From contig JAFQDL010000009.1 in assembly GCA_017399265.1 (NCBI GenBank), positions 42,052 through 106,051 on the forward strand: a DNA stretch of 64,000 bases, read 5' to 3'. Below the pieces are notes generated by a model. The model saw nothing but the letters and a program-made list of their open reading frames with translations. It had not been told where the DNA came from and made no database searches. A program made the position numbers and the translations under genes. Within the stretch, counting starts at the first letter, position 1; every line of letters starts with the position of its first letter. This DNA is from Clostridia bacterium (GTDB lineage: Bacteria > Bacillota > Clostridia > Christensenellales > UBA1242). Positions 10,303 through 56,131 of this stretch are shown here, in pieces.

Positions 10303-10446
10303 GGCCTCGTGGTGTTCTTGAGATATATTTCACCATCAGACCACCCTCTTGGCCTCATGGTGTTCTTGAGATATATTTCACCATTAGACCACCCTCTTGG
10401 CCTCATGGTGTTCTTGAGATATATTTCACCATTAGACCACCCTCTT
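10303..10446 (+). repeat. 3 x 48-bp tandem repeat abutting the tRNA-Arg 5' end. Each unit starts with tRNA nt 1-12 and contains an inverted, diverged copy of tRNA nt 1-15.
   Basis: Units start at 10303, 10351 and 10399. Units 2 and 3 are identical (ggcctcatggtgttcttgagatatatttcaccattagaccaccctctt); unit 1 has 2 substitutions. The tRNA starts at 10447 with the same ggcctcatggtg. Confidence 0.95.
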
Positions 10447-10521
10447 GGCCTCATGGTGAAATGGATATCACACGAGTCTTCGGAACTCGTTTTTCGGGTT
10501 CGAATCCTGATGGGGCCACCA
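10447..10521 (+). tRNA. tRNA-Arg (anticodon UCG), CCA encoded
   Basis: Hand-folded cloverleaf: acceptor GGCCTCA/TGGGGCC, anticodon stem CGAGT/ACTCG with loop CTTCGGA, T arm TCGGG-TTCGAAT-CCTGA. 75 nt. Confidence 0.75.
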
Positions 10522-10647: not shown

Positions 10648-11175
10648 TTATTGCATATACTTCTTTACCGCTTCTTCTCTTAGAATTTTATACTCCTCCT
10701 CGGATATTTTACCTTGTTCTTTTAATTCATTTATCTCATTTAGTTTTTGATTTAACCATTCAACACTATCTTTTACCTCATAACTAGATTCATCTAAAAT
10801 AATTGAATCTGGCTCTTGCGTATTCTTATATTCATTAACAACAAATCCCCTTTCCAAAAATCTAGCCTTAGTTATTGTGTTTTGTATCCAAAGAGTAAAA
10901 AACCAAACAATTATATTATTAAATATATTCAACAAAGAAATAACAAAAAAAGTCCTATGCCTAACTACAATTTTCGTCTTGTCTTTTTTAGAGTAATACA
11001 AGTAAATTGCCCCAGTAACAAGCGAAAGAACCAATCCTATAATATCAGTTATTAAGTAAAAAACTTCAAATTTATTAATTAGAAAATCTGTTACAATCAA
11101 ATATATATTAAATATGCTCAGTCCTAATATGCAAAATCCAGCAGTTTTTAAATTCTTATTAATTTTGTTCATCAT
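10648..11175 (-). CDS. Membrane protein with C-terminal SHOCT domain
   Basis: About 3 TM helices, then LKEQGKISEEEYKILREEAVKKY (SHOCT-like). Confidence 0.65.
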   Translation of the reverse strand: MMNKINKNLKTAGFCILGLSIFNIYLIVTDFLINKFEVFYLITDIIGLVLSLVTGAIYLYYSKKDKTKIVVRHRTFFVISLLNIFNNIIVWFFTLWIQNTITKARFLERGFVVNEYKNTQEPDSIILDESSYEVKDSVEWLNQKLNEINELKEQGKISEEEYKILREEAVKKYMQ

Positions 11176-23468: not shown

Positions 23469-23646
23469 AATACTTCACCCATTTTATCTTTTAGAGTAGT
23501 ATACAACCACCCCTATATACTTTGTCAATAAAAACAATATATGTCTTTAAAATCAATATGGAAAAGTCATAAAAAATCAAAATTTTAAAATGATATTAGT
23601 TTAAAACTACTTTAATTAAAAAAACACCCCAAAGGAGTGTCTGATT

Positions 23647-23950
23647 AAGTGCTCTCGAAAGCATTCGGCCGTAGGTGTCGGGCAAGGTTCCCGACTACAC
23701 CTGGACTCTGTCCATGGGTTCGCGACGATGGTAATCGTCTATGTGTGTAACACATCAAGACCTGAGAGTAAAAAAAGTCGCACAAATTGCGACTTGTTTG
23801 GTGGTCTCTCAGGGATTCGGCCGCAGGTGTCGGGCAGGGGTCCCGACTACACCTGGACTCTGTCCACGGGTTCGTGACGATGGCAATCGTCTATGTGTGC
23901 AACACACTAAGACCTGAGAGTAAAAAAAGTCGCACAAATTACGACTTGTT
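23647..23950 (-). repeat. 2 x 152-bp tandem units downstream of tRNA-Lys. Each has a terminator hairpin, about 100 nt of GC-rich multi-hairpin sequence and a copy of tRNA nt C56-CCA.
   Basis: Proximal unit 23799-23950 begins on the plus strand with tggtggtctctcagggattcg, identical to the tRNA 3' end at 23951-23971. Distal unit 23647-23798 is roughly 90% identical, with a decayed tRNA fragment. Confidence 0.95.
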
Positions 23951-24026
23951 TGGTGGTCTCTCAGGGATTCGAACCCTGGACCCACTGATTAAGAGTCAGT
24001 TGCTCTACCAACTGAGCTAAGAGACC
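23951..24026 (-). tRNA. tRNA-Lys (anticodon CUU), CCA encoded
   Basis: Reverse complement GGTCTCTTAGCTCAGTTGGTAGAGCAACTGACTCTTAATCAGTGGGTCCAGGGTTCGAATCCCTGAGAGACCACCA folds as a canonical 76-nt cloverleaf. Confidence 0.92.
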
Positions 24027-54960: not shown

Positions 54961-55208
54961 TAAGTTTTACCTCCGATATAATTTGTGCTCATATTGTATC
55001 ATATTGAATTTTGAATTTCAATACCTAAATAAAAAATTTATTTCCATATAAGAAAATGCAAAGATTTAATTAAGGCACTTATGTCCATTATTGAAACGTT
55101 TATTAATAACTTATCTAACGATAAGAAAGATATATATAAAGAAATTTCCCCCACAGACTATCTGGTATGATAGAATAAAAAAGCATCTTCAAAAAAGATA
55201 CTTTATTT

Positions 55209-55473
55209 TTGTGTCGACGGCGGGACTTGGCTGGAGCGAAGCGTAAGTGACGGGCAGGGTACCCGGCTACAGAGCATGGAATGCGGGTGAAAGTCCTATT
55301 GAATAAAAAAAAGTATCTAAGATTAAGATACTTAAAAATATTGGTGCCGAAGGCGGGACTTGGCTGGAGCATAGCGTAAGTGCCGGGCAGGGTACCCGGC
55401 TACAGAGCATGGAATGCGGGTGAAAGTCCTATTGAATAAAAAAAGTATCTATGATTAAGATACTTAAAAATAT
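55209..55473 (-). repeat. 2 tandem units (133 + 132 bp) downstream of tRNA-Leu. Each has a terminator hairpin, GC-rich hairpins and a copy of tRNA nt C56-CCA.
   Basis: Proximal unit 55342-55473 starts on the plus strand with tggtgccgaaggcgggacttg, identical to 55474-55494 of the tRNA. Distal unit 55209-55341 has a partly decayed copy (ttgtgtcgacggcgggacttg). Confidence 0.95.
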
Positions 55474-55555
55474 TGGTGCCGAAGGCGGGACTTGAACCCG
55501 CATGGTTTCCCGCACGATTTTGAGTCGTGTGCGTCTGCCATTCCGCCACTTCGGC
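55474..55555 (-). tRNA. tRNA-Leu (anticodon CAA), long variable arm, CCA encoded
   Basis: Reverse complement GCCGAAGTGGCGGAATGGCAGACGCACACGACTCAAAATCGTGCGGGAAACCATGCGGGTTCAAGTCCCGCCTTCGGCACCA. 82-nt class II cloverleaf. Confidence 0.92.
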
Positions 55556-55915
55556 ATGATATATAGAAAATGTAAATCAAATAATATTATGTGCAGCATA
55601 GCCAAATGGAATGGCAGACCTGCACGAGCCGAGCGAAGCGAACGCCATTCTGGAAGAATATTCCGCCACTTCGGCATGATATATAGAAAATGTAAATCAA
55701 ATAATATTATGTGAGGCATAGCCAAATGGAATGGCAGACCTGCACGAGCCGAGCGAAGCGAACGCCATTCTGAAAGAATATTCCGCCACTTCGGCATGAT
55801 ATATAGAAAATGTAAATCAAATAATATTGTGTGCAGCATAGCCAAATGGAATGGCAGACCTGCACGAGCCGAGCGAAGCGAATGCCATTCTGAAAGAATA
55901 TTCCACCACTTCGGC
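55556..55915 (-). repeat. 3 x 120-bp tandem units upstream of tRNA-Leu. Each has an AT-rich leader, tRNA nt 1-16 and a GC-rich hairpin holding an inverted, diverged copy of the tRNA 5' end.
   Basis: ttccgccacttcggc recurs ending at 55555 (true tRNA), 55675, 55795 and 55915 (ttccaccacttcggc). Period is exactly 120 bp and the copies differ at only a few positions (4 to 7 per pair). Confidence 0.95.
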
Positions 55916-56131
55916 ATGATATATGAGTTTACTTTTTTTTTACAATTACAAAAAAACTAATTTTTTTAAACTGCAAAAGCATTGTATCACATTATGTAAA
56001 GAAATTGCAACAATTTTTTCACAAATTTACTAACATTTTATTTGCGGGCAGCAAAATGTTTTGTCTTTAGTGTTAAAAATTTGTATAATATTAATGTATT
56101 ACATTAATAAATACAAGAAAGGAGAAAAAAT

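What the first reader, a model, noticed from the sequence alone, without database searches (positions are those of the whole stretch)
55209..55915. tRNA-Leu(CAA) is embedded in tandem arrays that re-copy its own 5' and 3' termini inside GC-rich hairpin units
Seen directly. On the tRNA strand the order is three 120-bp units, then the intact tRNA, then two units of about 132 bp. Each upstream unit is an AT-rich leader, an exact copy of tRNA nt 1-16 (GCCGAAGTGGCGGAAT), then about 60 nt of GC-rich sequence. That GC-rich part contains, in inverted orientation, a diverged copy of the tRNA 5' end (plus-strand GCCAAATGGAATGGCAGAC at 55601-55619). The copied acceptor/D strand can therefore pair in cis as GCCGAAgTGG/CCATTTGGC plus GAATGGC/GCCATTC. 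Each downstream unit is a terminator hairpin with a T-run, about 90 nt of GC-rich hairpins, then an exact 21-nt copy of tRNA C56-A76 including CCA. A short inverted copy (GGACTT/AAGTCC) closes the unit. The outermost copies are the most decayed (ttccaccact; gtgtcgacgg). GC content here contrasts sharply with the AT-rich genome. There are no variable spacers and no adjacent integrase, transposase or RT. Inference: possibilities include (a) serial site-specific integration scars or miniature integrative elements using tRNA-end att cores, (b) tRNA-mimic processing or decoy RNAs co-transcribed with the tRNA, or (c) fold-back or slippage amplification. I do not recognise this architecture as a described element class.
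Basis: partly seen in the sequence, partly recalled or inferred. Interest (0 to 1): 0.85.

Follow-up and report, generated by a model that had tools for sequence, protein, structure and literature searches.

The report
tRNA-linked repeat arrays, both ends
The tRNA-Leu gene is flanked on both sides by tandem fold-back units built from copies of its own ends plus GC-rich hairpins; the downstream ones match the little-known, still unexplained "tRNA-linked repeats" of E. coli, while the upstream mirror-image type is not part of the published TLR definition I read.

Summary
tRNA-Leu(CAA) (55474-55555, minus strand) is preceded by three 120-bp units and followed by two 133-bp units.

- **Unit anatomy.** Each unit holds a direct copy of a tRNA terminus (nt 1-16, or C56-A76), an inverted copy of the overlapping tRNA segment, and a GC-rich hairpin module.
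- **Not a one-off.** The other two tRNAs in the window (Arg, Lys) carry arrays with the same logic. So do tRNA-Lys, tRNA-Ile and tRNA-Leu genes in related uncultured Clostridia genomes.
- **Arms versus modules.** The arms always match the local tRNA. The hairpin modules are shared between different tRNAs and between genomes.
- **Dynamics.** Unit number varies between samples (1-3).
- **Not undescribed.** The 3' arrays meet the published hallmark of E. coli "tRNA-linked repeats" (TLRs; tyrT 178-bp repeat, RtT, RrA/B/F). The E. coli tyrT unit, read here, has the same fold-back layout.
- **No sequence homology shown.** The Rfam RtT model does not match these units.
- **New here.** The 5' mirror-image units, the Clostridial occurrence and the shared modules.
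- **Likely mechanism.** Unequal recombination changes copy number. Co-transcription and processing into small RNAs is plausible but untested.
- **Disfavoured.** Integration scars.

The parts
55474..55555 (-). tRNA-Leu(CAA), intact, with encoded CCA
   Evidence: ARAGORN; Rfam tRNA 59.8 bits
55556..55675 (-). 5' unit 1 (proximal), 120 bp. Direct copy of tRNA nt 1-16 at 55660-55675. Module A at 55620-55642. Inverted copy of nt 23->1 at 55601-55619. AT-rich stretch ending in the 9-nt leader copy.
55676..55795 (-). 5' unit 2. Direct copy at 55780-55795, module A at 55740-55762, inverted arm at 55721-55739.
55796..55924 (-). 5' unit 3 (distal). Direct copy at 55900-55915 with C11T, plus the leader copy at 55916-55924. 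Module A at 55860-55882, inverted arm at 55841-55859.
55981..56010 (-). Promoter-like site (TTGCAA-18-TACAAT, TG-extended) upstream of the whole 5' array. No sense-strand promoter-like site is called inside the units.
   Evidence: consensus match only
55341..55473 (-). 3' unit 1, 133 bp. Trailer and terminator hairpin at 55438-55465. Inverted T-arm copy at 55414-55429. Direct CCATGC followed by the module B hairpin at 55380-55413. Exact 21-nt copy of C56-A76 at 55342-55362.
55209..55340 (-). 3' unit 2 (distal). Terminator at 55305-55333, inverted T-arm copy at 55281-55296, module B at 55247-55280, decayed 3'-end copy at 55209-55229 (3 mismatches, CCA lost).
55177..55204 (-). Native terminator hairpin after the last unit. 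It is a paralogue of the terminators inside the units.
   Evidence: read; coordinates; L022 2296-2482 aligns to window 55177-55362
23645..24026 (-). Same phenomenon at tRNA-Lys(CTT) (23951-24026). Two 152-bp 3' units (23799-23950 and 23645-23798). Each holds: terminator | inverted arm CTCTCAGG | two hairpins (Y1, Y2) | inverted CGAACCC..GGAC | AGA | direct GTCCAGG | module B | 21-nt tRNA 3' copy. That copy is exact at 23799-23819 and decayed at 23649-23667.
10303..10521 (+). Same phenomenon at tRNA-Arg(TCG) (10447-10521). Three 48-bp 5' units at 10303-10446. Each holds: direct nt 1-12 | 16-nt loop | inverted copy of nt 16->1 | ACCCTCTT. The distal unit carries a compensatory A7G / T->C pair.

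Best explanation
**What it is.** These are tRNA-linked repeat (TLR)-type arrays.

Each unit is a fold-back module made from the neighbouring tRNA gene's own sequence. It contains a direct copy of the gene's terminus, an inverted copy of the overlapping segment that can pair with it, and a conserved GC-rich hairpin module in between. The 3' units also copy the trailer and intrinsic terminator.

The 5' units are the same design in mirror orientation. Read on the opposite strand, they look like 3' units that follow the antisense tRNA.

**What is shown.**
- The anatomy.
- The same design at every tRNA in the window and at tRNAs in related genomes.
- Arms that follow the local tRNA, while modules are shared between loci and genomes.
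- Unit number differs between assemblies, with crossover points inside units. This points to unequal homologous recombination or slippage.

**What is inferred.**
- The units are transcribed with the tRNA. The 5' units lie between the promoter and the tRNA. The 3' units would be reached by read-through of the terminator, as shown for E. coli RrB.
- The tRNA-like end and its closing helix let tRNA-end processing enzymes release each unit as a small, stable, structured RNA.
- What that RNA does is unknown.
For: **Hallmark of TLRs met.**
- 21/21 nt at the 3' end of the proximal Leu unit and of the proximal Lys unit equal the 3' end of the upstream tRNA.
- The published definition is 18-19 bp identity and 1-5 repeats per locus (PMC8144298).

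**Same layout in E. coli.**
- The tyrV unit, read here, has inverted nt 77-68, direct nt 59-67, a ~68-nt GC insert, then direct nt 67-85.
- The Rfam RtT consensus closes with exactly that inverted/direct pairing.
- rrnB has the order 5S - T1 - TLR - T2. This matches tRNA - terminator - unit - terminator here. RrB is made by T1 read-through.

**Generality.**
- Arg, Lys and Leu arrays lie in the window.
- tRNA-Lys and tRNA-Ile in MAG CAKVHF01 carry units that end in their own 3' ends.
- tRNA-Leu in a lineage with about 45% amino-acid identity carries different units of the same layout.

**Shared modules.**
- L010-Lys versus window-Leu: 44/51 identical, score 67 against a shuffle maximum of 25.
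- L019-Ile 3' unit versus window-Leu 5' unit: 25/27 identical on the opposite strand, score 41 against a maximum of 31.

**Structure.**
- The sense strand of the 3' units folds better than shuffles (z = -4.2 for Leu, -2.7 for Lys).
- Six compensatory pairs separate the two Lys-type lineages.
- One compensatory pair lies in the distal Arg unit.

**Dynamics.** Copy number is 1-3, with recombinant units.
Against: - **No expression data.** Every 3' module sits behind a canonical intrinsic terminator and has no promoter of its own.
- **Module A orientation.** It occurs in the sense orientation in one unit and antisense in another. That is awkward for a purely sense-RNA function and fits a strand-symmetric DNA process better.
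- **Variable helix register.** The 3' tail after the closing helix is 4-14 nt long, read. Strict mimicry of an RNase P minihelix is therefore not met.
- **One stem unsupported.** The predicted GTGCAG/CTGCAC stem of the 5' unit is not kept by natural variants.
- **No detectable homology to E. coli TLRs.**
  - cmscan finds no RtT match at E <= 10 on the window units, or at E <= 1 on four related loci.
  - Shared short motifs are within the range of chance.
- **Possible assembly effects.** Copy-number differences and 'recombinant' units could partly come from short-read assemblers collapsing repeats.
Confidence: 0.5

Rival explanations
1. **Non-functional DNA by-product.** tRNA genes are rich in hairpins. 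Fold-back or template-switch replication errors of the tandem-inversion-duplication type (direct-inverted-direct) create a palindromic copy of the gene end. Slippage or unequal crossover then amplifies it. Quasi-palindrome correction keeps the arms complementary. Ectopic gene conversion spreads the modules between loci.
For: - Each 3' unit is a direct-inverted-direct arrangement of the tRNA 3' portion. A tiny palindrome centre sits in the variable loop (GCAT-TCC-ATGC, GGAC-AGA-GTCC, GGAC-TAAA-GTCC, GCATG-CC-CATGC).
- The design occurs on both strands, as 5' and 3' arrays, and module A appears in both orientations.
- Copy number varies, with crossovers inside units.
- A relative with the orthologous tRNA-Leu has no units at all (L043), so the units are dispensable.
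- The TID model itself is recalled from memory (Kugelberg, Roth and colleagues 2010) and was not checked here.
Against: - It does not explain where the GC-rich inserts (modules A, B, Y) come from in a 31% GC genome.
- It does not explain why module B is about 86% identical (44/51) between units on different tRNAs in genomes whose tRNA-Lys genes differ markedly, with different acceptor stems.
- It does not explain why hairpin Y2 keeps its stem through three double substitutions.
- The sequence after the terminator is not the mirror image of the trailer, as a fresh fold-back would give (read).
Confidence: 0.25
2. **Scars or attP-only mini-satellites of site-specific integration.** Elements of a tyrosine-recombinase family integrate in the T-loop, or in mirror fashion in the D-loop. 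They restore the tRNA end and leave a displaced copy. Serial integration or deletion leaves attP-sized units.
For: - All 3' identity blocks start in the T-loop (C56 to nt 59) and run to CCA. From memory, this is the classical T-loop sublocation of tRNA att sites (Williams 2002).
- 3' unit sizes of 133-300 bp are attP-like.
- The outermost copies are the most decayed.
- DNA just beyond the Leu 3' array differs between near-identical strains.
- L036 carries a different insert at the same place.
Against: - No integrase, transposase or RT was found in 29 ORFs scanned. PHROGs and PADLOC gave nothing decisive.
- No phage, plasmid or viral-contig match to the units was found.
- The Arg units are 48 bp, too short to circularise.
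- Four different target sites at three tRNAs in 64 kb would need many specificities.
- Crossovers that change copy number lie inside units, not at the core.
- An inverted arm 50-100 nt from the core is not a feature of known att sites.
Confidence: 0.15
3. **Assembly artefact.** The arrays are a chimeric or mis-joined repeat.
For: Many public contigs break at or inside the arrays. Copy numbers from short reads are uncertain.
Against: - The same three-unit Leu 5' array, with the same variant sites, was assembled independently in another sample (L021).
- Arrays at all three loci recur in ENA and JGI assemblies, and the exact flanking proteins also occur in NCBI records.
Confidence: 0.03

Closest known systems
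E. coli tRNA-linked repeats (TLRs): the tyrT/tyrV 178-bp repeat, rttR / RtT RNA (Rfam RF00391)
   Same: - Tandem units (x3.1 in K-12) lie directly downstream of a tRNA gene.
- Each ends in an exact copy of the tRNA 3' end that starts in the T-loop (19 nt there, 21 nt here).
- The units are GC-rich.
- An inverted arm pairs with the direct arm as a closing helix.
- A direct copy of the preceding tRNA nucleotides is separated from the terminal copy by a GC-rich insert.
- The function is unknown.
   Different: - The sequences are not detectably homologous. The RtT model finds nothing here, and motif sharing is marginal.
- The Clostridial units carry an intrinsic terminator in every unit.
- They occur at several isoacceptors, with modules shared between them.
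- A 5' mirror-image type exists here, which is not part of the TLR definition.
RrA/RrB/RrF: 5S-linked TLR small RNAs between the dual terminators of E. coli rrn operons (PMC8144298)
   Same: - The order is gene - terminator 1 - unit ending in a copy of the gene's 3' end - terminator 2, as in the Leu and Lys 3' units.
- This gives an experimental precedent for expression by terminator read-through and processing.
   Different: - These repeats are linked to 5S rRNA, are single-copy, and have no inverted arm of 7 nt or more.
- Hfq/CsrA binding motifs were not examined here.
Direct repeats of tRNA 3' ends left by integrative elements (att sites; tandem accretion of islands)
   Same: A direct repeat of the tRNA 3' segment that starts in the T-loop. 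The intact tRNA is proximal and the decayed copy distal.
   Different: - There is no recombinase and no cargo.
- Units are 48-300 bp.
- The 5'-end copies and inverted arms have no counterpart.
- Recombination points lie inside units.
REP/BIME elements (GTAG followed by a GC-rich palindrome)
   Same: Module B is TGTAG + YCGGG-N7-CCCGR, that is, GTAG next to a GC-rich hairpin.
   Different: It is not dispersed. In 64 kb it occurs only inside the tRNA-linked units. No RAYT/TnpA gene was seen.

Membership tests
tRNA-linked repeats (TLR; Egan & Landy 1978, Rudd 1999, as defined in PMC8144298) | Located in a tRNA or rRNA operon, immediately downstream of the RNA gene | tested here: met
   The Leu 3' units (55209-55473) and the Lys units (23645-23950) directly follow the tRNA on its strand.
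tRNA-linked repeats (TLR) | The last 18-19 bp of the unit are identical to the 3' end of the upstream RNA gene | tested here: met
   21/21 in the proximal Leu unit, 18/21 in the distal Leu unit, and 21/21 in the proximal Lys unit. 14-21 nt in L010, L019 and L032.
tRNA-linked repeats (TLR) | One to five repeats per locus | tested here: met
   1-2 units at Leu 3'; 2 at window Lys; at least 2.5 at L010.
tRNA-linked repeats (TLR) | Applied to the 5' arrays: the unit copies the 3' end of the upstream gene | tested here: not met
   The Leu and Arg 5' units copy the tRNA 5' end and lie upstream of the gene. They fit only as a mirror image on the opposite strand.
Rfam RF00391 RtT | Match to the covariance model at or above the gathering score (45 bits) | tested here: not met
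   No RtT match even at E <= 10 on the window arrays, or at E <= 1 on L010, L019, L032 and L036. The same search gives 133-137 bits on E. coli.
TLR-derived small RNA (RttR, RrB) | Transcribed with the upstream gene and processed to a discrete RNA | not testable with these tools
   No expression data are available. Only promoter and terminator consensus scans were run.
Integrative element / att-site scar | A recombinase gene in or next to the element, or a full-length relative that carries one | tested here: not met
   29 ORFs were scanned against Pfam without an integrase, transposase or RT hit. There was no phage, plasmid or viral match to the units.
Integrative element / att-site scar | Gain and loss of units at a fixed core (site-specific crossover) | tested here: not met
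   The L020 and L023 units are recombinants with crossover inside the unit. Caveat: short-read assemblies.
CRISPR array | Identical repeats separated by variable spacers | tested here: not met
   The sequences between the repeated cores are 93-98% identical to each other.
REP/BIME | Dispersed in many intergenic regions | tested here: not met
   The four module B matches in 64 kb all lie inside tRNA-linked units. The two strong GC islands of the window are the Lys and Leu arrays.
tRNA pseudogene array | Units recognisable as tRNA by ARAGORN or the Rfam tRNA model | tested here: not met
   Only the three true tRNAs are called, even at E <= 10.

The most novel reading that the evidence does not exclude
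TLRs of Proteobacteria and these Clostridial arrays could be products of one unrecognised, strand-symmetric mechanism. It would place a GC-rich hairpin module about 12-25 nt inside either end of a stable-RNA gene copy. It would also re-template both a direct and an inverted arm from the local gene. Candidates are a terminus-copying recombinase, a staggered-cut integrase or a reverse-transcriptase-like activity. In that case the modules are a small mobile or programmable element family, not passive duplications.
Probability: 0.15. Interest if true: 0.85.

Novelty: new variant of a known kind. Interest (0 to 1): 0.6.

Why it matters
TLRs have been known in E. coli since 1978. Most still have no function and no proposed origin, and the paper read here reports RrA/B/F conservation only within Enterobacteriales.

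This work found the same architecture in a distant, AT-rich Clostridia lineage:
- at every tRNA gene of a 64-kb window;
- with hairpin modules shared between different tRNAs and genomes;
- with arms that co-vary with the local tRNA;
- with a mirror-image 5' form.

That gives comparative material to attack the question. One could define the conserved modules, ask on which strand they act, and profile which enzyme co-occurs with them.

There are also two practical warnings. These arrays break metagenome assemblies, and they generate spurious ORF calls.

Tried and rejected
**Searches that found nothing or did not help**
- Rfam at gathering and at E <= 10: only the tRNAs and noise.
- BLAST of the whole region against phage and plasmid records: only the tRNA part matched. 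A Fusobacterium locus that extended slightly beyond the tRNA had no arrays.
- Module B pattern in viral contigs: 0 hits.
- Module B pattern in metagenome contigs: 0 hits. This collection evidently lacks these organisms, because JGI contigs fetched by another route do contain the motif.
- Module B pattern in GTDB genomes: one relevant MAG, plus about 15 chance hits in high-GC genomes.
- More loci through flanking proteins:
  - RadC homologues and YhhN homologue P0033 have no tRNA synteny.
  - ORF 10648-11175 is not on record.
- The Bösl & Kersten 1991 paper is not held.

**Ideas rejected**
- REP-like reading of module B: rejected because it is not dispersed.
- Each unit as a cloverleaf or pseudo-tRNA: window-Lys hairpin Y2 has a 7-nt anticodon-like loop, but this is not conserved in L010 and no tRNA model matches.
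- Strict RNase P minihelix mimic: rejected because the tail after the closing helix varies from 4 to 14 nt.
- CTX-phage-like or integron-attC-like folded single-strand att site: a resemblance from memory only, with no recombinase and no test available.
- Deep sequence homology with E. coli TLR inserts (GAGCGAAGCGA, GTGSCGGGCAGG): scores lie within the range of shuffles.
- The minimum-free-energy stem GTGCAG/CTGCAC in the 5' unit: not supported by natural variants.
Full report
**1.

The window is 31% GC. The strongest and largest GC islands are at 23624-23903 and 55199-55893 (peak 0.67-0.68); two other short stretches just reach the 0.55 threshold. ARAGORN and Rfam place tRNA-Leu(CAA) at 55474-55555 on the minus strand.

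TRF reports two arrays next to it:
- a 120-bp period x3.2 at 55540-55924 (96% matches);
- a 133-bp period x2.1 at 55211-55494 (95% matches).

The direct copies are far beyond chance:
- tRNA nt 1-16 occur four times (three exact, the outermost with C11T). None is expected in shuffles.
- The 21-nt 3' end occurs three times (two exact, the outermost with three mismatches and no CCA). None is expected.

The repeated 5' block also includes 9 nt of leader, so that core is 25 nt.

**2. Anatomy of the units**

On the tRNA strand, a 5' unit reads in this order:
- direct nt 1-16;
- a short hairpin, then GAATGGC (nt 13-19);
- module A (GTTCGCTTCGCTCGGCTCGTGCAG);
- an inverted copy of nt 23->1;
- an AT-rich stretch ending in the leader copy.

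A 3' unit reads in this order:
- CCA, then trailer and terminator hairpin;
- an inverted copy of the T arm (GGACTTTCACCCGCAT);
- a tiny palindrome centre;
- direct CCATGC;
- module B (TGTAG-CCGGG-TACCCTG-CCCGG-CAC...CTCCAGC), which replaces the 5' strand of the T stem;
- direct C56-A76.

**3. It is not a one-off**

The other two tRNA genes of the window carry arrays with the same logic.
- tRNA-Arg(TCG) is preceded by three 48-bp units. Each holds direct nt 1-12, a 16-nt loop, an inverted copy of nt 16->1, then ACCCTCTT.
- tRNA-Lys(CTT) is followed by two 152-bp units. Each holds a terminator, an inverted arm, two hairpins (Y1, Y2), an inverted and then a direct copy of the variable-loop/T-stem region, module B, and 21 nt of the tRNA 3' end.

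A scan of one genome per GTDB species with the module B hairpin found three contigs of one other genome. It is an uncultured Clostridia MAG from Hadza gut.
- Its tRNA-Lys is followed by at least 2.5 units of 174 bp.
- Its tRNA-Ile is followed by units of about 300 bp.
- Each unit ends in that tRNA's own 3' end.

In a lineage whose proteins are about 40-55% identical to the window's, the orthologous tRNA-Leu has no 5' units. It does have polymorphic 3' units of the same layout but different sequence. Another lineage at a similar distance has a plain tRNA-Leu with no units (L043).

**4. Arms follow the local tRNA; modules are shared**

In eight units, including the E. coli one, the best inverted match to the local tRNA was reached by 0-7 of 200 shuffled tRNAs. 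That comparison uses a single local segment, so it is a modest test.

Module sharing between units is significant:

| Comparison | Identity | Strand | Score | Shuffle maximum |
|---|---|---|---|---|
| L010-Lys 3' unit vs window-Leu 3' unit (module B and linker) | 44/51 | same | 67 | 25 |
| L010-Lys vs window-Lys (centre and module B) | not computed | same | 54 | 28 |
| L019-Ile 3' unit vs window-Leu 5' unit (module A) | 25/27 | opposite | 41 | 31 |

This last result matters. Read on the plus strand, a Leu 5' unit has the order of a 3' unit: trailer, inverted arm, module, terminal arm. In addition, rc(tRNA-Leu nt 1-16), ATTCCGCCACTTCGGC, resembles the true 3' end, AGTCCCGCCTTCGGCA. The 5' arrays therefore look like the same kind of unit built on the other strand.

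**5. Structure**

- The sense strand of the 3' units folds better than shuffles (z = -4.2 for Leu and -2.7 for Lys). The antisense Lys strand does not (z = -0.8).
- RNAalifold on the two Lys-type lineages predicts 31 pairs. Six have compensatory double changes, three of them in hairpin Y2.
- Module B shows a C-G to T-A exchange at the base of its stem.
- The distal Arg unit carries A7G in the direct arm together with T->C in the inverted arm.

These facts show that pairing is maintained. They do not say whether this happens in RNA or in single-stranded DNA. Quasi-palindrome correction could give the same pattern.

**6. Dynamics**

| Locus (source) | Leu 5' units | Leu 3' units |
|---|---|---|
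| window | 3 | 2 |
| L020 | 2 | 2 |
| L021 | 3 | contig ends in the array |
| L022 | 2 | 1 |
| L023, L026, L027 | 1 | 1 |

The L022 group is about 94-97% identical in nucleotides to the window. Arg 5' units number 1, 2 or 3.

The variant-site table shows two recombinant units:
- the proximal unit of L020 is a recombinant of the window's middle and proximal units;
- the single unit of L023 is a recombinant of the two L022 units.

Crossovers therefore lie inside units. This is the mark of unequal homologous recombination or slippage, not of site-specific recombination.

One caveat applies. Short-read assemblers can collapse repeats and produce such chimeras, and many contigs break at the arrays.

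**7. Context**

The window is the chromosomal origin region. It carries dnaA, dnaN, a RecF/SMC-family ATPase gene, gyrA, mnmE, mnmG, parA and parB. No integrase, transposase or RT was found in 29 ORFs scanned against Pfam. PHROGs and PADLOC gave nothing decisive. The units have no match in phage, plasmid or viral collections.

**8. Comparison with what is known**

From memory, I recalled the E. coli tyrT locus, and I then checked it with the tools.
- In K-12, a 178-bp unit is repeated 3.1 times after tyrV. A fourth copy lies between tyrT and tyrV.
- All four are hit by Rfam RtT at 133-137 bits and are annotated rttR/tpr.
- Each unit ends in 19 nt of the tRNA-Tyr 3' end.
- It also contains an inverted arm (GGGGAAGGAT, nt 77-68), a direct copy of nt 59-67, and a GC-rich insert of about 68 nt in the T-loop.
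- The Rfam consensus structure closes with exactly this inverted/direct pairing.

The literature names the class tRNA-linked repeats (PMC8144298):
- 22 TLRs at ten E. coli loci, one to five per locus;
- hallmark: 18-19 bp at the 3' end identical to the upstream tRNA or rRNA gene;

I read the rrnB example. It has the order 5S - T1 - unit - T2. A direct 5S segment is interrupted by a GC-rich insert of about 70 nt. There is no inverted arm of 7 nt or more.

The Clostridial 3' arrays meet the TLR hallmark and share the architecture. They are not members of Rfam RtT. Short shared motifs are within the range of chance. The 5' arrays fall outside the TLR definition.

**9. Mechanism**

Shown:
- the units are built from the local tRNA gene plus shared modules;
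- unit numbers differ between assemblies, with crossover points inside units, which points to homologous recombination (subject to the assembly caveat in section 6).

Inferred, with about 0.5 confidence:
- the units are co-transcribed with the tRNA;
- they are released as small structured RNAs through their tRNA-like ends, as in E. coli.

Supporting this, the Leu 5' units lie downstream of the only sense-strand promoter-like sites. The Arg units contain promoter-like TTGGCC-17-TATATT sites that span unit junctions. Every Lys 3' unit is preceded by a canonical terminator, as RrB is by T1.

Against a purely RNA explanation stand three points:
- module A occurs in opposite orientations;
- the register of the closing helix varies;
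- a relative has no units at all.

These keep a strand-symmetric DNA origin (fold-back or template switching) at about 0.25. Integration scars stay at about 0.15. The origin of the GC-rich modules is unexplained under every model.

**10. Verdict**

This is a real, multi-locus, multi-genome feature. It is a new variant of a known but unexplained kind. Interest is moderate to high (0.6).

Noticed in passing
L036:1990-2200 (NCBI GCA_964314045.1 contig, tRNA-Leu 3' flank): In one strain of the distant lineage the TLR-type segment is replaced by a different insert of about 210 bp. It is made of four AATGATATT + small-hairpin repeats followed by four or five inverted AATATCATT repeats. It gives three sub-threshold matches to Rfam Gut-1 RNA (25-31 bits; gathering score 50).
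   Followed up: partly
window:55429-55917 (-): A 162-aa ORF runs through the tRNA-Leu gene and the 5' units. It is called as a gene in a public assembly (L021 45-533, no Pfam hit). It is almost certainly spurious, like tpr inside the E. coli tyrT repeat.
   Followed up: partly
window:55590-55596, 55710-55716, 55830-55836 (+): A 7-nt patch just 3' of the inverted arm of the Leu 5' unit is hypervariable between units and strains (TGCTGCA, TGCCTCA, TACTGCA, TACCGTA). The rest of the unit is nearly invariant.
   Followed up: partly
window:23649-23667 (-): The decayed outermost tRNA-Lys 3' copy (CGAATGCTTTCGAGAGCAC) resembles the 3' end of the other MAG's tRNA-Lys (CGAGTCTCCGAGGGAGCAC) at least as well as that of the resident tRNA. 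This hints that the tRNA allele at this locus was once different.
   Followed up: no
window:54604-55177 versus L022:1838-2295: The DNA just beyond the Leu 3' array, including the first gene of a two-gene operon (118 aa here, 98 aa there), is not alignable between genomes that are otherwise about 95% identical. L022 also has an extra ~880-bp segment next to the helicase gene.
   Followed up: partly
window:56132-56848 (+): The YhhN-family protein is only 73% identical to that of the L022-group strains, although the surrounding DNA aligns at about 94-97%.
   Followed up: no
window:47794-54057 (+): A gene cluster next to the tRNA-Leu 3' side: a HerA/TraG-like P-loop ATPase (895 aa), a protein matching a phage virion-structural PHROG, a NUDIX hydrolase, and a UvrD/GajB-like helicase (685 aa). 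PADLOC hits are weak. It may be a defence or mobile remnant.
   Followed up: partly
window:39663-40312: A dense cluster of short AT-rich tandem repeats lies between dnaN and mnmE in the dnaA-dnaN / mnmE-mnmG / parAB region. It is probably oriC.
   Followed up: no
L010, L019, L021, L039, L040 and several JGI contigs: Public contigs often end inside or at these arrays, so the arrays fragment metagenome assemblies. The copy numbers given here are lower bounds.
   Followed up: partly
L019:7107-7248 (-): A near-threshold Rfam match to the antisense RNA family HPnc0260 (52.4 bits; gathering score 59) overlaps the 3' part of tRNA-Ile and the first terminator.
   Followed up: no
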